Positions 1 to 59,368 of a DNA stretch of 64,000 bases are shown here, piece by piece. How positions within the stretch are numbered: the first letter of the stretch is position 1; every line of letters begins with the position of its first letter. A program made the translations under genes and the position numbers. Source of the DNA: the human T2T-CHM13v2.0 reference genome, Homo sapiens. The notes under the pieces were generated by a model. It was not told the origin of the DNA. It ran no database searches and saw only the letters and a program-made list of their open reading frames with translations. The DNA lies in assembly GCF_009914755.1 (NCBI RefSeq), contig NC_060930.1. One strand, given 5' to 3'.

Positions 1-360
1 TGTGACAAGCCAGTTCTACACGCATAGCCTAGGTGTGAGACTAAAAGCTTTCCTCATTGACTTAAATTTGGATAACAGTGAGGTGTGGTGGGTATGATGT
101 GTGCTTAGATGTGAGAGAAAAGCTCTACTCACCTGTAGGAGATTGTTTTTCAGTAGACTCCATCTCTAATCAAGACAGTTATGAAAAGCAAAGTGAACTG
201 AAGTTGTTTCTGTATTCATTTTATTGCAAAGGAGCTACATCTTAGGTAAAAATTATGACCAACCAGATTAAACTCTACCCACATCCTGTATTTTAAGGTC
301 TAAGTTTAACTGGACAACATTTATATGGATTGGAGCTATTAGTACATCAAATGTGATGGG

Positions 361-3300
361 TTTTTCTGTTGTTTGGAATAGTTTCAGAAGGAATGGTACC
401 TGCTCCTCTTTGTACCTCTGGTAGAATTCGGCTGTGAATCCATCTGGTCATGAGCTTTTATGGTTGATAGGCTATTAATTACTGCCTCAATTTCAGAACT
501 TGTTACTGGTCTATTCAGGGATTTGGCTTCTTCCTGGTTTAGTCTTGGGAGGGTGTATGTGTAGAGGAATTTATCCATTTCTTCTAGATGTCTAGTTTAT
601 TTGCGTAGAGGTGTTTATAGTACTCTGACAGTAGTTTGTATTTCTGTGGGATCACTGGTGATATCCTCTTTATCATTTCTTATTGTGTCTATTTGACTCT
701 TCTCTCTTTTCTCCTTTATTAATCTAGCTATTGGTCTAACTATTTTGTTAATCTTTTCAAAAAACCAGCTCCTGGATTCATTGATTTTTTTCAAGGGTTT
801 TTTGTGTCTCTATCTCCCTCAGTTCTGTTCTGATCTTAGTTATTTCTTGTCTCCTGCTAGCTTTTGAATTTGTTTGCTCTTGCTTCTCTAGTTCTTTTGT
901 GATGTTAGGGTGTTGATTTTAGATCTTTCCTCCTTTCTCTTTTGGGCATTTAGTGCTATAAATTTCCTTAACACTGCTTTAGCTATGTCCCAGAGATTCT
1001 GGTATGTTGTGTCTTTGTTCTCATTGGTTTCATTTATTTCTGCCTACATTTCGTTATGTACCCAGTAGTCATTCAACAGCAAGTTGTTCAGTTTCCATGT
1101 AGTTGTGCGGTTTTCAGTGAGTTTCTCAATCTTATGTTCTAATTTGAGTCTGAGAGACTTACGATTTCCATTCTTTTGCATTTGCTGAGGAGTGTTTTAC
1201 TTCCAATTATGTGGTTGATTTTAGAATCAGTGCAATGTGGTGCTGAGAAGAATGAATATTCTGTTGATTTGGGGTACAGAGTTCTGTAGATGTCTATTAG
1301 GTCCACTTGGTCCAGAACTGAGTTCAAGTCCTGAATATCCTTGTTAATTTTCTGTCTCGTTGATGTAATGTTGACAGTGGGGTGTTAAAGTCTCCTACTC
1401 TTATTGTGTGGGAGTCTACATCTCTTTGTAGGTCTCTAAGAACTTGTTTTATAAATCTAGGTGCTCCTGTATTGAGTGCATATATATTTAGGATAGTTAG
1501 CTCTTCTTGTTGCATTGATCCCTTTACCATTATGTAATGCCCTTTGTTGTCCTTTTTGATCTTTGTTGGTTTAAAGTCTGTTTTATCAGAGACTAGAATT
1601 GCAACCCCTGCTTTTTTTTGCTTTCCATTTGCTTAGTAAATATTCCTCCATCCCTTTATTTTGAGCCTATGTGTGTCTTTGCATGTGAGATGGGTCTCCT
1701 GAATACAGCACACCAATAGGTCTTAACTGCTTATCCAATTGCCAGTCTGTGTCTTTTAATTAGGGCATTTAGCCCATTTACATTTAAGGTTAATATTGTT
1801 ATGGGTAAATCTGATCCTGTCATCATGATGCTAGCTGGTTATTTTGCACATTAGTTGATGCAATTTCTTCATAGTGTCATTGGTCTTTACATTTTGGTGT
1901 GTTTTTGCAGTGGCTGGTACTGGTTTTTCCTTTCCATATTTAGTGCTTCCTTCAGGAGCTCTTCTGGTGGTGACAAAATACCTCAGCATTTGCTTGTCTG
2001 GAAAGGATTTTATTTCTCCTTCACTTATGAAGCTTAATTTGACTGGATATGAAATTCTGGATTGAAAATTCTTTCAGAATGTTGAATATTGGCCCCTACC
2101 CTCTTCTGGTTTGTAGGGTTTCTGCAGAGAGATTTGCTGTTAGTCTGATGGGCTTCCCTTTGTAGGTTACTTGACCTTTCTCTCTGGCTACCCTTAACAT
2201 TTTTTCCTTCGTTTCAACCTTGGAGAATCTGCAATTGTGTGTCTTGAGGTTGCTTTTCTCAAGTAGTATCTTAGTGGTGTTCTCCGTATTTCCTGAATTT
2301 GATTGTTGGCCTGTCTTGCTAGGTTGGGGAAGTTCTCCTGGATAATATACTGAAGAGTGTTTTCCAACTTGGTTCCATTCTCCCCATCACTTTCAGGGAC
2401 TCCAAATAATCATAGGTTTGGTCTTTTCACATAGTCCCTTATTTTTTGGAGGCTTTGTTTGTTCCTTTTTGTTTTTTCTCTAATCTTGTCTTCATGCCTT
2501 ATTTCACTAACTTGATCTTCAATCTCTGATATCCTTTCTCCCCCTTGATGAATTCAGCTATTGATACTTGTGTATGGTTCATGAAGTTCTCATGCTGTGC
2601 TTTTCAGCTCCATCAGGTCATTTATGTTCCTCTCTAAACTGATTATTCTAGTTAGCAGTTCCTGTAACCTTTTGTCAAGGTTCTTAGCTTCCTTGCATTG
2701 GATTAGAACACGCTTCTTTAGCTCAGAGGCATTTGTTATTACCCACCTTCTGAAGCCTACTTCTGTCAGTTCATCAAACTCATTCTCTATCCAGCTTTGT
2801 GCCCTTTCTGGAGGAGTTGCGATCATTTGGAGGAGACGAGGCATTCTGGTTTTGGGAATTTTCAGTGTTTTTGTGCTGGTTTTTCCTCATCTTCGTGGAT
2901 TTATCTACCTTTGATCTTTGAGGCTGATGACCTTTGGATTGGGTTTCTGTGTGGGGGTCCTTTTTGTTGATCTTGATGTTGTTGCTTTCTGTTTGTTAGT
3001 TTTCCTTCTAACAGTCAGTCCCCTCTGCTGCAGATCTGCTGCCATTTGCTGGAGGTCCACTCCAGACCCTATATTTGCCTGGGTATCACTAGTGGAGGCC
3101 GCAGAACAGCAAAGGTTGCTGCCTGCTCCTTCCTCTGGAAGCTTCGTCCCAGAGGTGCCCCATCCTGATGCCAGCCAGAGCTCTCCTGCAATAGGCAGAG
3201 ATGCCTGTTGACCCCTGTTGGGAGGTCTCTCCCAGTCAGGAGGCATGGGGGTCAGGACCCACTTGAGGAGGCAGTCTGTCTCTTAGCAGAGCTCAAGAGC

Positions 3301-3853
3301 TGTGCTGGGAGATTCGCTGCTCTGTTCAGAGCCGGCAGGTAGGAATTAAGTCTGCTGAAGCTGTGCCCACAGCCACCCCTTCTCCCAGGTGCTCTGTCGC
3401 AGGGGAGATGGGAGCTTTATCTATAAGTCCCTGACTGGGGCTTCTGCCTTTTAGAGATGCCCTGCCCAGTGAAGAGGAATCTAGAGAAGCAGGGTGGCCA
3501 CAGCCGCTTTGCTGTGCTGTGTTGATTTCTGTGCAGTCCGAACTTCCAGGTCTCCTTAGCACTGTCAGGGGAAAACTGCCTACTTAAGCCTCAGTAATGG
3601 CTGATGCCCCTCCTCCCAACAAGCTCGATCTTCCCAGGTCAACTTCAGACTGCTGTGCTGGCAGTGAGAATTTCAAGCCAATGGTTCTTAGCTTGCTGGG
3701 CTCCATGGGAATGGGACCCACTGAGTGAGACCACTTGGCTCCCTGGCTTCAGCCCCCTTTCCAGGGGAGTAAACAGTTCTGTCTTGCTGTGGTTCCAGTG
3801 CCACTGGGGTATGAAAAAAACATTCTTGCAGCTAGCTCCGTGTCTGCCCAAAC
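361..3853 (-). mobile_element. L1PA8-type LINE-1 fragment (most of 5'UTR, ORF1, 5' part of ORF2), decayed
   Basis: Minus-strand ORF pieces match L1 ORF1 (WIENEFDELTEVGFRRWVIT) and ORF2 endonuclease (MVKGSMQQEELTILNIYA; [17 protein letters not shown]). The 5'UTR is homologous to 25150-26120. Broken by stops and frameshifts; lacks the first ~350 bp and the whole 3' part within this window. Confidence 0.95.
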
Positions 3854-4019
3854 TAGCTCTTATTTTTCTTATGCTCTTAATCGCTTAGGTCTAAGTGTAC
3901 ATAAGGGTGAAAATCCATTTAAAGAAATACTTGTATAGATTTAAAAATCTAATTGCTCCCTGGAGCTAATCTGTATAATAAATTGATTACTAAACTGATT
4001 ACATATTTTAAAAGGCGGG

Positions 4020-19034: not shown

Positions 19035-19343
19035 AGCTGGGTGCAGTTGCTCATGCTGTAATCCCAGCACTTTGGGAGGCTGAGGCAGGTGGATCACTTG
19101 AAGCCAGGAGTTTGGGACCAGGCCAGCCAACATGGCAAAACCCCCTCTCTACTAACAATATGAAAATAAGCTGGGCATGGTGGCCTATGCTACTAGTAAT
19201 CCCAGCTACTTGGGAGGCTGAGGTGGGAGGATAGCTTGAGCCTAGGAGGCAGAGGCTGCTGTGAGCTGAGATGGCACCACTGCACTCCATCTCACTTTTG
19301 AGATGGCAAGACTCTGTCAAAAAAAAAAAAAAGAAAAGAAAAA
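19035..19343 (+). mobile_element. Alu (J-like)
   Basis: Alu dimer with A-tail; flanking aaaat(t/g)..tgcacaga repeat. Confidence 0.93.
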
Positions 19344-23369: not shown

Positions 23370-23990
23370 AGAAGGAAAAAAAAATCAGTGGAAGATAGTA
23401 CATTCAAAATTTTCAAATCTAAAATAAAAGTGAACAGAGATGAAGGGACTTATGAAGCAGATTAATATATGCATTATGAGAATCCAAGGAGAAGAAAGAG
23501 ATAGTGAGATTATATGCAGAAATAATGACTAAAAAAAATCCCAAATACAATGAAAGACATTAATATACAAATCCAAGAAACTCAGCTTCCAAAGTGGTCC
23601 ACTCCAAAACATATTATAATCAAACTGTTAAAGACAGAATTGAGAGAAGAGAGAAGCAACTCATCACATACAAGCAATCTTCAAAAATACTATCAATCAA
23701 TTCTTCAGCATATACTTTGGAGGACAAAATGCAGTGGGATAAAGTGCTGAAAGAAAATGTCAGCTGAGAATTCTGCATCTGGCAAAACAGTCTTTCAAAA
23801 TGATGGAAAAGTTAAGACATTCACAGATAACCAGAAACCCAGGAAATTCATTACCACTAGACCTGCCTTATAAAAAATGTTAATGGTAGTCCTTCAGGTA
23901 GAAATGCAAGGACACTTACAGTAACTCATACCCATAGGAAGATATGAAGATCTTCAGCAAAAATAAATACATGGACTAATATAAAAGAAA
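23370..23990 (+). mobile_element. Old L1M ORF1 region (host element; continues at ~31255-31690)
   Basis: MKDINIQIQETQ...TPKHIIIKLLK is L1 ORF1-like; L1M inter-ORF-like sequence resumes after 31255. Confidence 0.75.
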
Positions 23991-24553: not shown

Positions 24554-24569
24554 AAAATTTTGCAAACTG
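24554..24569 (+). repeat. 5' copy of target-site duplication AAAATTTT(G/T)CAAACTG
   Basis: 15/16 identical to 31220-31235. Confidence 0.85.
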
Positions 24570-24570
24570 G

Positions 24571-24718
24571 GTCTCTCACTGCAGCCAGAGCTCCAGGCCT
24601 CCTCTTCACTGCTCTGTGTCCTCTGCTCCTAGAGGTGCAGCTTCTGTGGCCCTGTGACCTGCAGGTATTGGGAGATCCACAGCTAAGATGTCAGGACCCC
24701 CCTGAAAGCCTAGAAATG
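24571..24718 (+). pseudogene. Retrotransposed exon 1 (5'UTR plus start ATG) of a ZNF91-subfamily KRAB zinc-finger gene
   Basis: gtctctcactgcagccagagctccagg...ctctgtgtcctctgctcctagagg...ctgtggccctgtgacctgcaggtattgggagatccacagctaag...cctgaaagcctagaaATG matches the recalled ZNF91/ZNF90/ZNF493-type first exon (encodes PPESLEM). It is not followed by the usual GTGAG donor. The exact parent gene is not identifiable by eye. Confidence 0.88.
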
Positions 24719-24796
24719 TGTACATTTTTGATTCCATGTTTTAATTAATCATTTTTTGACAACACATTGGATGGCATATTTAAAAAGATGTGTTTA

Positions 24797-27700
24797 GGGA
24801 GGGGCCAAGATAGCCAAATAGAAATAACTCCAGTCTGCAGCTCCCAGTGAGACCAATGCAGAAGGTAGGTGCATTTCCAACTGAGGTACCCAGTTCATTT
24901 CACTGGGACTGGTTAGGTATTGGGTGCAACCCACAGACAGCAAGCAGAAGCAAGCTGAAGTGTCACTTCACCCGGAAAGTGCCAGAAGCCAGGGGACCTC
25001 CCTCCCGAAGCCAAGGGAAGCCGTGAGGGACCGTGCTACCAAGACTGGGTAGTGCACTTTTCCCATGGTTTTTGCAACCCACAGATCAGGAGGCTCCCTC
25101 GTGTGCCTACACCACCAGGGCACTGGGTTTCAAGCCCAAAATTGGGTGGCTGTTTGGGCAGACACCATGCTAACTGCAGGAGTTTTTTTCATACCCCAGT
25201 GGTGCCAGGAACCCAAGCAAGATAGAATCATTCACTCCCCTGGAAAGGCAGCTGAAGCCAGGGAGCCAAGTGGTCTGGCTCAGCAGGTCCCACTCTAAAG
25301 GAGCCCAGCAAGCTAAGAACCACTGGCTTGAAATTCTTACAGCCAGCACAGCAGTCTGAAGTTGACCTGCGACAATCAAGCTTGGTAGGGGGAGGGGCAT
25401 CTGCTATTATGAGGCTTTAGTTTTCCCCTGACACTGCTAAGGAGGCTGGGAGGTATGGACTGGGCAGAATTCACCACAGCACAGCACAGTGGATGTGGCC
25501 AGACTGCTTCCCTAGATTCCTCCTCACTGGGCAGGGCATCTCTGAAGGAAAAGCAGCAGCCCCAGTCAGGGGATTACAGATAAAACTCTTATCTCCCTGG
25601 GACAGAGCACCTGTGGGAGGGGCAGCTGTGGGGCAGCTTCAACGAATTTAATTTTTCCTGCCTGCTGACTCTGAAGAGAGCAGCTGATCCTGACAAGGGG
25701 GATTCTCCCAGCACAGTGCACCAGCTCTGCAAAGGGACAGCCTGCCTCCTCAGGTGGGTCCCTGACCCCCGTGCCTCCTGACTGAGAGAGACCTCCCAGC
25801 AGGGGTCGACAGACACCTCATGCAGGAGAGCTCTGGCTGGCATCAGGCCAGTGCCCCTCTGGGACAAAGCTTCCAGAGGAAGGAGCAGGCAGCAATCTTT
25901 GCTGTTCTGCAGCCTCCACTGGTGATACCCAGGAAAACAGGGTCTGGAGTGGACCTCCAGCAAACGGCAGCAGACTTACAGAGGAGGGGCCTGTTAGAAG
26001 AAAAACTAATGCACAGAAAGCAACAACATCAACATCAACATCAACAAAAAAGAACCCCACACAGAAACCCAATCCAAAGGTCATCATCCCCAAAGATCGA
26101 AGGTAAATAAATCCACAAAGATGAGGAAAAACCAGCACAAAAATGCTGAAAATTCTAAAAACCAGAATGCCTCTTCTCCAAATGATCACAACTCCTTTCC
26201 AGCAAGGACACAAAACTGGATAGAGAATGAGATTGATGAATTGACAGAAGTAGGCTTCAGAAGGTGGGTAATAAACTCCTCTGAGCTAAAGGAGTATGTT
26301 CTAACCCAATGCAAGGAAGCTAAGAACCTTGATAAAAGATCACAGGAACTGCTAACTAGAATAACCAGTCTAAAGAAGAACATAAATTGACCTGATGGAG
26401 CTGAAAAACACAGCATGAGAACTGTGTGAAGCATTCACAAGTATCAATAGCCAAATCCATCAAGCGGAAGAAAGGGTATCAGAGACTGAAGATCTCCTTA
26501 CTAAAATAAGGCGTAAAGACAAGATTAGAAAAAAAAATAAGGAATGAAAAGGAACAAACAAAGCCTCCAAGAAATATGGTACTATGTGGAAAAGACCAAA
26601 CCTATGATTGACTGGTGTACCTGAAAGTGACGGGGAGAATGGAACCAAGTTGGAAAACACACTTCAGGATATTATCCAGGAGAACTTCCCCAACCTAGCA
26701 AGACAGGCCAACATTCAAATTCAGGAAATACAGAGAACACCACTAAGATACTCCTCAAGAAGAGCAACCCCAAGACACATAATTGCAGATACTCCAAGGT
26801 TGAAACAAAAGAAAAAATGTTAAGGGCAGCCAGAGAGAAAGGTCAAGTTACCTACAAAGGGAAGCTCATTAGACTAACAGTTGATCTCTCTGTAGAAACC
26901 CTACAAACCAGAAGAGGGTAGAGGCCAATATTCAACATTCTGAAAGAATTTTCAATCCAGAATTTCATATCCAGTCAAATTAAGCTTCATAAGTGAAGGA
27001 GAAATAAAATCCTTTCCAGACAAGCAAATGCTGAGGTATTTTGTCACCACCAGAAGAGCTCCTGAAGGAAGCACTAAATATGGAAAGGAAAAACCAGTAC
27101 CAGCCACTGCAAAAACACACCAAAATGTAAAGACCAATGACACTATGAAGAAATTGCATCAACTAATGTGCAAAATAACCAGCTAGCATCATGATGACAG
27201 GATCAGATTTACCCATAACAATATTAACCTTAAATGTAAATGGGCTAAATGCCCTAATTAAAAGACACAGACTGGCAATTGGATAAGGAGTTAAGACCTA
27301 TTGGTGTGCTGCATTCAGGAGACCCATCTCACGTGCAAAGACACGTATAGGTTCAAAATAAAGGGATAGAGGAATATTTACCAAGCAAATGGAAGGCAAA
27401 TAAATGACAGGGGTTGCAATCCTAGTCTCTGATAAAACAGACTTTAAACCAACAAAGATCAAAAAGGACAATGAAGGGCATTACACAATGGTAAAGGGAT
27501 CAATGCAACAAGAAGAGCTAACTGTCCTAAATATATATGCACCCAATACAGGAGCACCCAGATTCATAAACCAAGTTCTTAGAGACCTGTAAAGAGACTT
27601 AGACTCCCACACAATAATGGTGGGAAACTTTAACACTCCACTGTCAATATTAGATGGCTCAACAAGACAGAAAATTAACAAGGATATTCAGGACTTGAAC

Positions 27701-30700
27701 TCAGCTCTGGACCAAGTGGACCTAATAGACATCTACAGAACTCTCCACCCCAACAAAATATATATTCTTCTCAGTACCAAATGGCACTTATTCTAAAATT
27801 GATGACATAATTGGAAGTAAAACACTCCTCAGCAAATGCAAAAGAATGGAAATCATAACAGTCTCTCAGACCACAGTGCCGTCAAATTAGAACTTAGGAT
27901 TAAAAAACTCACTCAAAACCACACAACCACATGGAAACTGAACAACTTGCTGTTGAATGACTACTGGGTAAATAACGAAATGAAGGCAGAAATAACAAAG
28001 TTCTTTAAAACCAATGAGAACAAAGAGACAACGTACCAGAATCACTGGGACACAGCTAAAGCAGTGTTAAGAGGGAAATTTATAGTACTAAATGCCCACA
28101 TCAGAAAGCAGGAAAGATCTAAAATTGACACCTAACATCATAATTAAAAGAACTAGAGAAGCAAGAGCAAACAAATTCAAAAGCTAGCAGGAGACAAGAA
28201 ATAACTAAGATCAGAACAGAACTGAGAGAGAGAGAGACATAAAAAACCCTTAAAAAAATCATTGAATCCAAGAGCTGTTTTTTTTTTTTTTTGAGAAGAT
28301 TAACAAAATAGATGGACTGCTAGCTAGACTAATAAAGGAGAAAAGAAAGAATCAAATAGACACAATAAAAAATGATAAAGGGGATATCACCACTGATCCC
28401 ACAGAAATACAAACTACTATCAGAGAATACTATTAACTATAAACACCTCTACACAAATAAACCAGAAAATCTAGAAGAAATAGATAAATTCCTGGACACA
28501 CACACCCTCCCAAGACTAAACAAGGAAGAAGTTGAATCCCTGAATAGATCAATAACAAGTTCTGAAATTGAGGCAGTAATGAATACCCTCCCAAACAAAG
28601 CCCAGGACCAGACGGATTCACAGCCGAATTCTACCAGAGGTACAAAGAGGAGCTGGTACAATTCCTTCTGAAACTATCCCAAACAATAGAAAAAGAAGGA
28701 CTCCTCCCTTACTCATTTTATAAGGCCAGCATCATCCTGATACCATCACCTGGAAGACATACAACAAAAAAAGAAAATTATAGGCCAATATCCCTGATGA
28801 ACATTGATGTGAATATCCTCAATAAAATACTGGCAAACCTAATCCAGCAGCCATCAAAAAGCTTATCCACCATGATCAAGTCGGCTTCATCCCTGGGACA
28901 CAAGGCTGGTTCAACATGCACAAATCAATAAACATAATCCATTGCATAAACACAACCAATGACAAAACCACATGATTATCTCAATAGATACAGCAAATGG
29001 CTTTGATAAAATTCAACATCCCTTCATGCTAAAAACTCTCAATAAACTGGGTATTGATGGAACATCTCAAAATAATAAGAGCTATTTATGATAAGTCTGT
29101 AGCCAATATCATACTGAATGGGCAAAAGCTGAAGCATTCCCTTTGAAAACTGGTACAAGACAAGGACGCCCTCTCTCACCACTCCTATTCAACATAGTAT
29201 TGGAAGTTCTGGCCAGGGCAATCAGGCAAGAGAGAGAAATAAAGTGTATTCAAATAGGAAGAGAGGAAGTAAAATTGTCTCTGTTTGCAGATGACATGAT
29301 TGTGTATTTAGAAAACTCCATCGTCTCAGCCCAAAATCTCCTTAAGCTGATAAGCAACTTCAACAAAGTCTCAGGATACAAAGTTAATGTGCAGAAATCA
29401 CAAGCATACACCAATAACAGACCAGCAGAGAGCCAAATCATGAGTGAACTCCCATTCACAATTGCTACAAAGAGAATAAAGTACCTAAGAATATAACTTA
29501 CAAGGGACATGAAGGACCTCTTCAAGGAGAACCACAAACCACTGCTCAAGGAAATAAGAGAGTAAACAAACAAATGGAAAAACATTCCATGCTCATGGAT
29601 AAGAAGAATCAATATTGTGACAATGGCCATACAGCCCAAAGTAATTTATAGATTCAATGCTATTCGCATCAAGCTACCATTGACTTCCTTTGCAGAATTA
29701 GAAAAAACTACATTCAATTTCATATGGAACCAAAAGAGCCCATATAGCCAAGACAATCCTAAGCAAAAAGAACAAAGCTGGAGGCATCACACTACCTGAC
29801 TTCAAACTATACTACAAGACTACAGTAACCAAAACAGCATGGTACTGGTATCAAAACATATATATAGACCAATGGAACATAACAGAGACCTCAGAAATAA
29901 CACCACACAACTACAACCATCTGATCTTTGACAAACCTGACAAAAACAAGCAGTGGGGAAAGGAGTCCCTATTTAATAAACAGTGCTGGGAAAACTGGCT
30001 AGCCATATGCAGAAAACACAAACTGGACCCCTTCCTTACACCTTATATGAAAACTAACTCAAGATGGATTAAAGATTTACATGTAAAACCCAAAACCATA
30101 AAAACAATAGAAGAAAACCTAGGCAATACCCTTCAGGACATAGGCATGGGCAAAGACTTCCTGACTCAAATGCCAAAGGCAACTGTGACAAAAGCCAAAA
30201 TTGACAAATGGGATCTAATTAAACTAAGGAGCTTCTTCTCAGCAAAAGAAACTATCATCAGAGTGAACAGGCAACCTACAGAATAGGAGAGAAATTTGCA
30301 ATCTACCCATTTGACAAATGTCTAAACAAGGAACTTAACAAGAAAAAAACAAACAATCCCATCAAAAAGTGGATGGAGGATGTGAACAGACGCTTTTCAA
30401 AAGAAGACATTTATGCAGCCAACAAACATATTTTTAAAAAGCTCATCATCACTGGTCATTAGAGAAATGCAAATCAAAACCACAATGAGATACCATCTCA
30501 CACCAGTTAGAATGATGATCATTTAAAATTCAGGAAACAACAGATGCTGGCGAGGCTGTGGAGAAATAGGAATGTTTTTACACTGTTGGTGGGAGTATAA
30601 ATTAGTTCAACCATTGTGGAAGACAGTGTGGTGATTCCTCAAGGATCTAGAATCAGAAATACCATTTGACCCAGCAATCCCGTTACCAGGTATATACACA

Positions 30701-31219
30701 AAGGTTTACAAATCATTCTACTATAAAGACACATGTACATGTATGTTTATTGCAGCACTATTTACAATAGCAAAGACTTAGAACCAACCCAAATGCCCAT
30801 CAGTGATAGACTGGATTAAGAAAATGTGGCACATATACACCGTGGAATACTACACAGCCATAAAAAAGAATGAATTCATGTCCTTTGCAGGGACATGGAT
30901 GAAGCTGGAAACCATCATTCTCGGCAAAGTAACACAGGAACAGAAAACTAAACACAGCATGTTCTCACTCATAAGTGGGAGTTGAAAAGTGAGAACACAT
31001 GGAGGAAGGGAGGGGAACATCACACACCAAGGCCTGTTGGGGGGTGGGGTGCAAGGGGAGTGAAAGTATTAGGACAAATACCTAATGCATGTGGGACTTA
31101 AAACCTAGATGATGGGTTGATAGATGCAGCAAACCACCATGGCACATGCATACCTATGTAGCCAACCTGCATGTTCTGCACATGTATCCCAGAACTTAAA
31201 GTAAAATAAAATAAAATTT
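24797..31219 (+). mobile_element. Full-length L1PA8-type LINE-1, inactive
   Basis: 5' end gggaggggccaagatagcc; ORF1 ATG at 26121; ORF2 ATG near 27194; RT motif [12 protein letters not shown]; 3'UTR ggacaaatacctaatgcatgtgggacttaaaacctagatg (L1PA8-diagnostic, recalled); A-rich tail. Both ORFs are disrupted. Confidence 0.95.
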
Positions 31220-31235
31220 AAAATTTTTCAAACTG
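31220..31235 (+). repeat. 3' copy of target-site duplication
   Basis: Immediately follows the L1 A-rich tail; 15/16 identical to 24554-24569. Confidence 0.85.
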
Positions 31236-31254
31236 ACCAAGGGTTTGAAAAAAA

Positions 31255-31990
31255 TCAGTCTTATTGTAATTTTGGTTTGTAACACCACTTTTTATTCTCT
31301 ACAGGATTTAAAAGCCAAATGCATAAAAATTAATTATAAATCTATATTAATGGGTATACAATGTATAAAGATGTAATTTGTGATATCAGTAACATAAAGG
31401 TGGGATGAAATTGTATAGGAATATAGTTTTTGTATATGACTGAAGTTAAATTATCAATTCAAAGTAGATCATTATAACTTTAGGATATTACATGTAATCC
31501 CCATAGTGATCACAAAGAAATTATCTATAGAAAACACACAAATGAAATGAAAAGGTAATCAAAATGAGTCAGCTCAGAAAAAATAAAGACAAAGAAAGGT
31601 AGTAACAGAAGGAATGGGAAACAAAGCTATGATGTACAGAAAATAAATTTAAAAAAGGTAAAAGTAAGTTCTTACCTATCAATAATTATGAGCTACAACA
31701 TGGTTAAATCTTGAAAACTTTATACTAAATGAAATAAGCTAGACAAAAGAGTAAATATTATATGGTCCCACTTAAATGAGGTATCTAGAAGAATCAAATT
31801 GGTAGAGAAAGAAAATATAATAGTGGTTACCAGGGTGGGAGAACAGGGAGTTTCAGTTTGGGATAATAAAAATGTTTTGGAGATGGCGTGTAGTGATGGT
31901 TGCACAACAATGTAAATATAGTTAATTCTACCAAATTTCACACTCAAAAAGGGTTAAAATAACATTTATAAGTATTTTACAACTTTTTTT
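31255..31990 (+). mobile_element. Old L1M (continuation of the host element, then an L1MB/MC-type 3' end)
   Basis: ttattgtaattttggtttgtaacaccactttt; tagtgatggttgcacaacaatgtaaat. Confidence 0.75.
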
Positions 31991-46230: not shown

Positions 46231-46407
46231 TATATAGTAGCTATATATATATATACACATATATATAGTAGCTGTATATATATAGTAGCTATATATATAT
46301 ATATACACACACACAATAGCAAGAAAGACAGTTACTTAGATATTATATGAGAAAAAGGAGAGCAAAATCTTGTGTGTATATATATATACACACACACATA
46401 CACACAA
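46166..46407. repeat. Compound (TA)n/(CA)n microsatellite containing a 59-bp unique insert
   Basis: Directly visible. Confidence 0.95.
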
Positions 46408-47262: not shown

Positions 47263-49757
47263 GCCAGTAACTTGGAGACACTGGTGGGAGTGGGAGAAGG
47301 TGGGTAGAAGGATGACCAGGGATCGTCCTATGAAAAGGCCATGACTGAAAGGTTTCAGGAGCAATGGGATCTGAGGACAACTCAGGCACAGACTTTCCTT
47401 TCTGCATTGCAGGTCTTTGACCTTATTTTCAAGTCTTCAGTAAAGTTTCTTAAATGCTACAGTGATTCTTGGGAGAATGAAGAGCAAAACCAGAAACCAC
47501 AGAGTGACAGATTGGCCTGGAGAAAGCTACAATAGCAAGAAAGACAGTTACTTAGATATTATATGAGAAAAAGGAGAGCAAAATCTTATTATTCAAGCCA
47601 CATGCATGAACTGCATACTTCCTTGCCACCAATTAAAATTGCAAGTCCTACAGGCCCCCAAACTCAGGCACAGATGCAAGAACTGGACTTGATTGTAAAA
47701 CCACACCCTGTGGTCATTAGATAACTAAGTCATTAGATAACTATGTCTGGAATGAAGGAAGAAACAGGCCAAATAGACAGAAAAAGAAGTTACTGGGATT
47801 TATGAAATCAGATAAAATAATTGGTATCTGGAATTATATTCTAAATGAAAAAAACCACATGGGATTTGAAACGTAGAAACAGGGCAACTTCAGAAACACC
47901 AGACTGATGTGAATTGGAGCATATTTATAGTTCTTCAGTTTCCACAGGCCAGCACACTGAGTAACTGAAAGACTGGATGGCTTTACTAGAAATTGAGGCT
48001 TTCTATTAAATAAGAAACACAAGAAAAGTCAGTCAAAAATTAAGTTTTTAATGGCATTTAAATTGTATTTCTGAACTGAAGAAAATCTATATTAATCAAG
48101 ATTAGACAATCTACACTAGACAAATTGTACCTATTGTACCTGAAAGAAGGTCATCACGGGCAGACTTCAGAAGGTGGAGTACACGTGGCATGACCTAAAA
48201 TTCACTTACAGGAATTTCATAAGTTCAAAATACTTACTAAGTGGAAATTAAAGATTGCTATAAATATTGCTGGGGCTCTTAGACTATGAAGAATACATCA
48301 CTTCTATATGTCCAGAAGAGGCACAGCAGAGACGCTGGGAGCAGTGGAGACGCTGAGTAGAACAATGTGAAGTGAAAAGCAGTATCTTCAAGAATGTGTG
48401 TGTCCACGCACTTGCTGTCACTCAGAACGGGGTCCCAGATTTGAGTCTCTGAATACTAAAGTGAAAAGTGGCAATTGATATTAGAAAACTCAAAAGGATG
48501 ATTATTTTAGGACAGGCTCACCTACAGTATATAAAATGATAAATAGACAACATAGATCCTGGAAAACCAGCAAAAAGCCAGGAGCCAGGTCCCTGAAGGG
48601 AACAAGACCCAGAGCAGATGATTTGCCTACATTAAGATTTGGCGTGAAATGCTTTCCCTCTCTATTTATATTCCTTGCATAGGTACCGACTATGAGAATC
48701 AGACACTACAACTTGGCTGCACGTGAGAGAGAAAAATGGAGATTTATCACTGGAATGACACTGTCTATAAGTTGTGACATATACATTCATGCTTAAGTGT
48801 TTAGCAAATTTTACTTAGTTCTCACATTATATGTTTTCACTTACTGTCAATGAATGACAACAAAACAAGATGCATAACATTCTGAATTAAAGAGCCCCTC
48901 TGGAGAATGCTAAAAAGATACCCCCAGCTGACAGAAATCCAAATTCTAGTAGTTAATCTAGAATAAGCAGACTAATTAAACAGTGTATCTGACTTAAGTG
49001 CCATCTATTTGAATCAGAATCATCTGGGATGCTTGTTAGAAACACACATCTCCAGGACCTAACCCAGACCCACCAAATCTGGGTTTAGGCATCTGCCTGT
49101 CAGCAACTTCCCTGGGTGATTCTTAGACACACAAGTGTGGGTGGAGCTTATTTTTTATAGCAAATACTAATAAAAGAGGGAATTCTCACTAAAATAAGTC
49201 ATTGAGATCTGAGATTTTTGCCCTTCTACAAGGGGTGGGGTAGCCTCCAACCTGGATCCTACCCCAGGGGCTCCATCAGCTGCACAATTGGTCTTTGAGG
49301 ACCAGATGACATCTGCCTCCTTGAGCCAAGCCCAGGATTTTTCTGAAGAGGGAAGAAAGTGGGCTGCCACAAGCCCCTGTGGCATGGCCAGATGGAGGCC
49401 CCGAGACCCTCCATTCTTCAGATTTTAACCTGGCACCCCAAGGAAAACCACAGGCAAAGTCCTAGGGAAATTCCCCTTCCCACCCTGCTATCTTACAAGC
49501 AGCAAACTCCCTCTGAAATGCCACATACCCTTACAGGTGTTATAACTGGAATTTTGGGAGACAAAGAACTACTCCAAATGTTGGGAAACAGGCCTTCCTG
49601 TGGGGTTTGTTCTTTAGCATGGAAGCAACAGGAGCATCTAATAAACTGCCCTCAGGAAGAATTTTTCTATGCTCTTAAGAACCACTAGCTTACACCCCAA
49701 ACATATGAAACTTCGAACAAACGTGTTGAATGTTTTTCTATTAAAGGAAATCGTTTA

Positions 49758-56449: not shown

Positions 56450-56743
56450 GTTATTTTATTTTATTTTTTTCTGAGACAGGGTCTTGCTCCATCACTCAGG
56501 CCTGAGTGCAGTGGTGTGATCTAGGCTCACTGCAACCTCCACCTCCCAGGCTCAAGCAATCTCCAAGTAGCTGGGACTACAGGCACATGCCACCATTCCC
56601 AGATACATTTTTCAAAATATTTTTAGTAGAGATAGGATTTCACCACGTGCCTAGGCTGGTCTCAAACTCCTGGGCTCAAGCAATCCACCTGCCTCAGCCT
56701 CCCAAAGTGCTGGGATTACAGGCATGGGTCACCACGCTTGGTC
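56450..56743 (-). mobile_element. AluJ within an old L1ME
   Basis: Alu consensus; L1ME-like flanks. Confidence 0.9.

Positions 56744-58684: not shown

Positions 58685-59368
<684 letters not shown>

What the first reader, a model, noticed from the sequence alone, without database searches (positions are those of the whole stretch)
26923..27287. 365-bp perfect-identity tract between two inverted, otherwise ~90%-identical L1PA8s (partner 1730-2094)
Seen by manual alignment: 26923-27287 is the exact reverse complement of 1730-2094 (418 bp with 2 mismatches over 26894-27311), while 60-bp windows just outside differ at 6/60. The ORF track shows identical peptides (1855..2037+ with 26980..27162-, and 1874..2065+ with 26952..27143-). 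Both copies share deletions relative to the recalled consensus (cagaagagctcc; attctgaaagaatt), so this is not shared consensus ancestry. At 90% identity a run of 365 matches has probability near 1e-17. Inference: recent ectopic gene conversion across 25 kb spanning the ORF1 end, the inter-ORF spacer and the ORF2 start.
Basis: seen in the sequence. Interest (0 to 1): 0.78.

Follow-up and report, generated by a model that had tools for sequence, protein, structure and literature searches.

The report
Gene conversion between inverted LINE-1 fossils
Two old, broken jumping-gene copies 25 kb apart on human chromosome 6 differ at about one base in ten but are identical over 365 bases, most likely because DNA repair copied that stretch from one onto the other in the last few million years; this is a clean example of a known process, with no effect on a gene shown.

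Summary
Window 1730-2094 is the exact reverse complement of 26923-27287, inside two head-to-head L1 copies that otherwise differ at 10.3% of aligned bases; the next-longest exact run is 81 bp. The homogenised tract is 418 bp (two differences) and carries 12 pair-private substitutions and three shared deletions (5, 11, 1 bp). A 26-mer over the 11-bp deletion occurs only at these two places in the genome, so this is neither chance nor subfamily consensus. The 21-kb interval shows no net inversion: copy B keeps its 16-bp target-site duplication, and the hosts of both copies run collinearly across them. Best explanation: non-allelic gene conversion without crossover (0.85). The donor is unresolved. 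The age is likely a few million years, and a date before the human-chimp split is not excluded. Two shorter patches (42 and 81 bp) suggest the pair exchanged sequence more than once. Conversion between nearby repeats is known for Alu and LTR elements; I found no paper on this locus. In passing: B carries a spliced KRAB-zinc-finger 5' leader, and A looks like a non-classical insertion. New member of a known kind; modest interest.

The parts
1730..2094 (-). Perfect 365-bp tract in copy A
26923..27287 (+). Perfect 365-bp tract in copy B (ORF1 C-terminus, spacer, ORF2 start)
26894..27311 (+). Full homogenised tract in B, 418 bp, 2 differences, 12 pair-private substitutions and 3 shared deletions (near 26942, 27054, 27277)
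1706..2123 (-). Full homogenised tract in A
361..3853 (-). L1 copy A: truncated at both ends, no poly(A), no target-site duplication, about 117 bp of host sequence missing at its site
24799..31219 (+). L1 copy B: full length, ends in an A-rich tail
24554..24569 (+). 5' copy of B's 16-bp target-site duplication
   Evidence: 1 mismatch, only two such places in the window
31220..31235 (+). 3' copy of B's target-site duplication
24571..24798 (+). 5' leader of B inside the duplication: KRAB-ZNF-type exon 1 (24571-24718) joined at splice sites to a 77-bp intronic piece (24719-24795)
27929..27970 (+). Candidate second patch: 42-bp exact run with 3 pair-private sites (partner 1059-1100)
28146..28226 (+). 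Candidate third patch: 81-bp exact run with 3 pair-private sites (partner 818-898)
1..360 (+). Retrocopy 3' UTR (UBE2D3P5 in the hub's table) left of A; host marker
3854..4006 (+). The same 3' UTR resuming right of A on the same strand; host marker against a net inversion
23750..23972 (+). Older repeat left of B; host marker
31250..31688 (+). The same older repeat resuming right of B on the same strand; host marker against a net inversion

Best explanation
Shown: the identity, the private shared changes, independent divergence elsewhere, and no net inversion between the copies. Inferred: a germ-line double-strand break, strand invasion into the neighbouring copy (same chromatid or sister), copying of about 0.4 kb, and resolution by strand annealing. 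The two differences near the tract edges are later mutations, unrepaired edges, or the remains of an earlier and longer event. The direction of transfer is unresolved. The tract lies in dead ORFs and most likely has no function.
For: Exact 365 bp against a next-longest run of 81. Within the 418 bp: 12 pair-private substitutions, a rate reached by 0 of 210 paralogue pairs, and divergence 0.005 against a minimum of 0.067 among those pairs. All 21 sites examined for context were non-CpG. Three shared deletions are absent from 18, 21 and 21 of 21 paralogues; the junction 26-mer occurs at 2 places in 3.1 Gb with up to 2 mismatches. The tract is not conserved in the family: paralogue pairs differ there by 0.107 on average. 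Trees: A and B are sisters with 100% bootstrap in the tract but do not group in the 5' block. No net inversion: B's duplication is intact, and the hosts of B and A are collinear. PMC2603318 (passages) uses matching duplications as the test of the uninverted state.
Against: No ape orthologue, second human haplotype or read could be examined, so the unconverted state is inferred from paralogues only. The donor is not identified: mutation spectrum lnLR -0.6, deletion rate LR 1.8, pointing opposite ways. A 10% divergence is low for efficient conversion: PMC3924818 (passages) gives about 200 bp of identity as the minimal efficient segment in rodents, and the longest run outside the tract is 81 bp. 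A and B also group in the 3' block (95% bootstrap), so one single event does not explain all the sharing.
Confidence: 0.85

Rival explanations
1. Inversion toggling: the interval inverted by recombination between the two L1s and later reverted at a different crossover; allelic recombination then paired a swapped copy with an unswapped one, leaving an identical tract and the ancestral orientation.
For: The geometry (inverted, same family, 21-25 kb apart) is that of L1-mediated inversions in PMC2603318 and PMC9675761 (passages). An even number of flips would leave duplications and hosts collinear, as seen. It could also give several patches.
Against: It needs at least three events. No chr6 locus among 49 human-chimp inversions. 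No inversion id at chr6 25.0-25.2 Mb in the T2T and GRCh38 inversion tables of PMC12350169 (130 haplotypes). L1 pairs at known inversions had median similarity 97.1%.
Confidence: 0.06
2. Assembly or polishing artefact: sequence of one copy was written over the other in T2T-CHM13.
For: The core is perfectly identical, and no reads or second assembly were available here.
Against: Shared private alleles continue beyond two copy-specific differences on both sides (26907, 26917; 27292, 27299; chance of those flanking runs 0.002), which a simple overwrite would not give. A 365-bp identity in 10%-diverged copies is far shorter than the long reads used for this haploid assembly (recalled).
Confidence: 0.03
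3. Copy A arose long ago as a DNA-templated copy of B or from the same source element, which explains a background of shared alleles; the perfect tract would still need a later conversion.
For: A has no poly(A) and no duplication, is cut at both ends and sits on a 117-bp deletion. The 3' block has 9 shared private sites in 1327, reached by 0 of 153 pairs. The 5' and 3' rates do not differ significantly (Fisher P 0.09).
Against: The 5' block shows no excess (4 in 1689; 39 of 190 pairs reach it) and ordinary divergence, 0.116. The 3' shared sites cluster in long exact runs (P 0.0003). Common origin cannot produce 365 identical bases among 10% divergence.
Confidence: 0.04
4. Selection or subfamily conservation keeps this part of L1 unchanged.
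For: Distances to paralogues are slightly lower in the tract than beside it (about 0.06-0.12 against 0.09-0.13 for most rows); six of those rows were picked by likeness to the tract.
Against: The shared sequence carries frame-breaking 5-, 11- and 1-bp deletions private to the pair, and paralogue pairs differ by 0.107 here.
Confidence: 0.01

Closest known systems
Non-allelic gene conversion between transposable elements (review PMC6598467, passages; LTR elements PMC4921805, abstract and outline)
   Same: Local homogenisation and tree incongruence between copies of one family; rate related to distance and identity; patchwork of tracts.
   Different: The passages seen document Alu, LTR and Ty cases and give raised rates within 10 kb for Alu. 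Here the pair is L1, about 90% identical and 25 kb apart.
Interlocus gene conversion in segmental duplications (PMC10172114, passages)
   Same: One-way transfer between non-allelic homologues, often on the same chromosome.
   Different: That survey leaves out alignments made wholly of common repeats, and its hotspots have median identity 99.4%. This pair would fall outside it.
Retrotransposon recombination-mediated inversion (PMC2603318, passages and Table S1; PMC9675761, passages)
   Same: Inverted L1 pair as the recombination substrate.
   Different: The defining swapped duplications and flipped interval are absent; this would be the non-crossover outcome.
Non-classical (endonuclease-independent) L1 insertion (PMC1920257, passages), for copy A
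   Same: 3' truncation, no poly(A), no duplication, target-site deletion.
   Different: A is old, and a later deletion that removed a normal 3' end cannot be excluded without the empty site in another species.

Membership tests
Non-allelic gene conversion tract | Identity far above the flanks and above chance | tested here: met
Non-allelic gene conversion tract | Derived changes shared by the two copies only | tested here: met
Non-allelic gene conversion tract | Tree incongruence between tract and flanks | tested here: met
   sisters in the tract (100%), not in the 5' block; also grouped in the 3' block (95%)
Non-allelic gene conversion tract | Flanking markers not exchanged | tested here: met
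Non-allelic gene conversion tract | One-way transfer with donor and acceptor identified | tested here: inconclusive
   needs orthologues
Non-allelic gene conversion tract | Present in reads and independent assemblies | not testable with these tools
   one assembly, no reads
L1-mediated inversion (RRMI) | Chimeric elements with non-matching target-site duplications | tested here: not met
L1-mediated inversion (RRMI) | Interval flipped relative to the ancestral state | tested here: not met
LINE-1 | ORF1p and ORF2p homology in L1 order | tested here: met
L1PA8 subfamily | Diagnostic 3' UTR positions against the subfamily consensus | not testable with these tools
   no consensus library; paralogue divergence of 11-13% fits an element of about that age (recalled)
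Non-classical L1 insertion (copy A) | 3' truncation, no poly(A), no duplication | tested here: met
Non-classical L1 insertion (copy A) | Empty pre-insertion site confirmed in another species | not testable with these tools
   only the retrocopy's parent UTR served as stand-in
L1 5' transduction (copy B) | Non-L1 5' sequence inside the duplication that maps elsewhere in the genome | tested here: met
L1 5' transduction (copy B) | Source L1 found directly downstream of that sequence | tested here: inconclusive
   0 of 21 matching loci have an L1 at that point

The most novel reading that the evidence does not exclude
This inverted L1 pair is a recurrent, self-reinforcing conversion partnership: separate events left the 42-, 81- and 418-bp patches, a later event nested in the 418-bp tract made the perfect 365-bp core, and that core, now longer than the roughly 200 bp needed for efficient recombination, has turned two 10%-diverged fossils into a substrate for a 25-kb inversion. 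The core may still be polymorphic among people.
Probability: 0.3. Interest if true: 0.55.

Novelty: new member of a known kind. Interest (0 to 1): 0.33.

Why it matters
It is an unusually clean single-locus record of homeologous repair between old L1 copies, at a divergence where recombination is usually taken to be rare. It shows that old L1 pairs can regain long perfect identity, which matters for dating repeats by divergence, for short-read mapping (reads inside the tract map to two places), and for predicting inversion substrates. The signature (long exact run plus pair-private indels between neighbouring old L1s) could be scanned genome-wide to measure such conversion by distance, orientation and divergence. 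No gene or phenotype is implicated: the RefSeq enhancer at 25404-25698 lies in B's 5' UTR, outside the tract.

Tried and rejected
Donor by mutation spectrum (lnLR -0.6) and by deletion rate (LR 1.8): uninformative. Donor by sub-lineage: the trees are star-like outside the tract. Source element of B as outgroup: 0 of 21 loci matching the second leader piece have an L1 right behind it; one (L027) has a more distant L1, 76% alike over 107 bp, starting 78 bp further on. A third copy as common donor: the best other match to the tract is 90% (40 of 5403 candidates scored), and the deletion junction occurs only twice. A recalled 13-base PRDM9 motif has 2 hits in the window (21004, 51350), none near the tracts. 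The whole-element MAFFT alignment was too gappy and was replaced by pairwise projections. The 81-bp run alone is not significant by length (permuted maximum averages 60); it counts only with its shared private sites. A second batch of 20 paralogues nearest to A was not obtained, so the outgroup leans towards B's relatives. Literature searches that found no report on this locus or on L1PA8 conversion: (0 papers). Supplement searches without a hit: 5 files searched, one picture PDF unread; hg38 places recalled; file unreadable, so ape inversions are unchecked. Two papers (PMC2950799, PMC5715747) were not held and were not read.

Full report
1. Observation. Window 1730-2094 is the exact reverse complement of 26923-27287 (365 of 365) and cannot be extended. 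It lies in an inverted pair aligned over 361-3853 (copy A, minus strand) and 25152-28694 (part of copy B, plus strand). Outside the tract the copies differ at 313 of 3029 aligned bases with 37 gap events; the next-longest exact run is 81 bp. A run of 365 has probability about 2e-17 at that rate, and 10,000 permutations never gave more than 140. The tract covers the ORF1 C-terminal domain (PF17490), a 63-bp spacer and the ORF2 start at 27194 (PDB ORF2p residues 1-28). The subfamily label L1PA8 was not tested.

2. The shared sequence is private to the pair. I compared A and B with 26 paralogues from the same genome: 20 picked by likeness to B's 5' UTR and 6 by likeness to the tract. For the pair statistics I dropped five rows: four partial or mis-projected (L005, L066, L075, L077) and L063, a near-copy of L059; 21 remained. 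In 26894-27311 (418 bp, 2 differences) A and B share 12 substitutions seen in at most one other row; 0 of 210 paralogue pairs reach that rate, and those pairs differ by 0.107 on average, 0.067 at least. Three deletions are shared (5, 11, 1 bp); 18, 21 and 21 of 21 paralogues hold the missing bases. A 26-mer across the 11-bp deletion occurs at exactly two places in 3.1 Gb allowing two mismatches: A and B. Trees (24, 24 and 23 rows) put A and B together with 100% bootstrap in the tract (distance 0.005), apart in the 5' block (0.18), and together with 95% in the 3' block (0.095). Consensus ancestry and family-wide conservation are excluded.

3. No net inversion. An inverted pair could also be homogenised at an inversion crossover. 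PMC2603318 (passages) uses matching target-site duplications to recognise the uninverted state. B is bounded by a 16-bp duplication with one mismatch at 24554-24569 and 31220-31235, found nowhere else in the window. An older repeat runs collinearly across B: paralogue L079 positions 1275-1490 match 23750-23972 and 1501-1940 match 31250-31688 on the same strand; L081 agrees, and L080 matched the right side only. A sits in a retrocopy 3' UTR whose parent-like locus on contig 5 matches up to window 360 and again from 3854, same strand, with about 117 bp missing. Both ends of the interval are therefore in the ancestral arrangement. No chr6 locus is among the 49 rows of Table S1 of PMC2603318, and the inversion tables 37 and 38 of PMC12350169 hold no id at chr6 25.0-25.2 Mb (file cut when stored, but both tables returned rows). 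The ape-genome supplement could not be read.

4. Mechanism. Shown: independent divergence, a bounded tract of shared private changes, unexchanged flanks. Inferred: a germ-line break in one copy, invasion of the neighbour 24.8 kb away, copying of about 0.4 kb, resolution without crossover. The donor is unresolved; two weak tests point opposite ways (lnLR -0.6; LR 1.8). Against an easy reading: PMC3924818 (passages) reports lower rates with divergence and a minimal efficient segment near 200 bp, though it allows conversion below that.

5. Age. Two differences in 418 bp is 0.48% (95% interval 0.06-1.7%), or 4.6% (0.6-17%) of the divergence outside. With a recalled age of about 40 million years for such elements this is about 2 million years (0.2-7). 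An internal yardstick, the L059/L063 pair on contigs 23 and 24 (taken as the X-transposed region, recalled), differs at 45 of 3497 bases (1.29%); two or fewer differences in 418 bp has P 0.096 at that level. A date near or before the human-chimp split is therefore not excluded.

6. More than one patch. Downstream of the tract A and B share 9 private sites in 1327 (0 of 153 pairs reach it); upstream 4 in 1689 (39 of 190 reach it). Six of the nine fall in two exact runs, 27929-27970 and 28146-28226; the shared sites sit in longer runs than random sites (P 0.0003, adjacent pair counted once). The two differences in the main tract lie near its edges: two random later mutations would leave a clean run of 365 or more with P 0.047. 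This hints at nested events or patchy repair. It is suggestive only: the 5' and 3' rates differ at P 0.09, sub-blocks were chosen after looking, and one discontinuous event or an early common origin could give the same pattern.

7. Comparison with what is known. Non-allelic conversion between transposable elements is established for Alu, LTR and Ty elements (PMC6598467, passages; PMC4921805, abstract and outline). The large human survey of interlocus conversion leaves out pure common-repeat alignments (PMC10172114, passages). L1 pairs behind polymorphic inversions were much more alike, median 97.1% (PMC9675761, passages). Searches (listings only) found no paper on this locus or on L1PA8 conversion; the library lacks most subscription journals, where I recall L1 conversion cases being reported. 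So: a new instance of a known process, on a substrate less often documented.

8. Side findings. Inside B's duplication, ahead of the L1, 24571-24718 matches a sequence repeated mostly on contigs 19 and 7 (39 of 40 scored matches, up to 89%) that ends at ATG followed by a GT donor in 11 distinct loci, and 24719-24795 matches a piece 1-2 kb downstream that begins after an AG acceptor. I read this as a spliced KRAB-ZNF leader (family name recalled), so B is likely a 5'-transduced L1 from a ZNF intron. The source was not found (0 of 21 loci). PMC2768975 (passages) reports upstream transcripts that splice next to full-length L1s. Copy A meets the structural criteria of a non-classical insertion in PMC1920257 (passages), but a later deletion is not excluded.

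9. Verdict. Real; non-allelic gene conversion without crossover, 0.85; new member of a known kind; interest 0.33. Recurrent conversion that creates an inversion-ready repeat has probability 0.3 and would deserve 0.55.

Noticed in passing
window 24571-24798: B carries a spliced 5' leader (KRAB-ZNF-type exon 1 joined to a 77-bp intronic piece) inside its target-site duplication: a likely old 5' transduction. The source L1 was not found in 21 matching loci.
   Followed up: partly
window 361-3853: Copy A is cut at both ends, with no poly(A) or duplication, and replaces about 117 bp of its host: it looks like a non-classical L1 insertion.
   Followed up: partly
window 60-360; L022 (contig 5, 140.15 Mb): The retrocopy annotated UBE2D3P5 has its best 3' UTR match (86%) on contig 5, where UBE2D2 lies (recalled); none of the 3 matches is on contig 4. 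It may be named after the wrong parent.
   Followed up: partly
L027:1310-1423: In one ZNF-type locus on contig 19 a different L1 (76% alike to B's 5' end) starts 78 bp behind the same intronic piece, so that intron position has taken an L1 independently.
   Followed up: no
window 46313-46371 and 47529-47587: Exact 59-bp direct repeat 1.2 kb apart; not examined.
   Followed up: no
window 19056-19094, 56683-56722, 59086-59120: Three places share exact runs of 34-39 bp, probably Alu sequence; not examined.
   Followed up: no
window 25404-25698: The RefSeq enhancer lies in B's 5' UTR, 1.2 kb upstream of the tract and not converted.
   Followed up: no
possibly window about 22534: Table 45 of PMC12350169 lists chr6-25070534-INS-4722. 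If the coordinate is T2T it falls between the two copies; I did not establish the assembly, and in GRCh38 it would lie outside the window.
   Followed up: no
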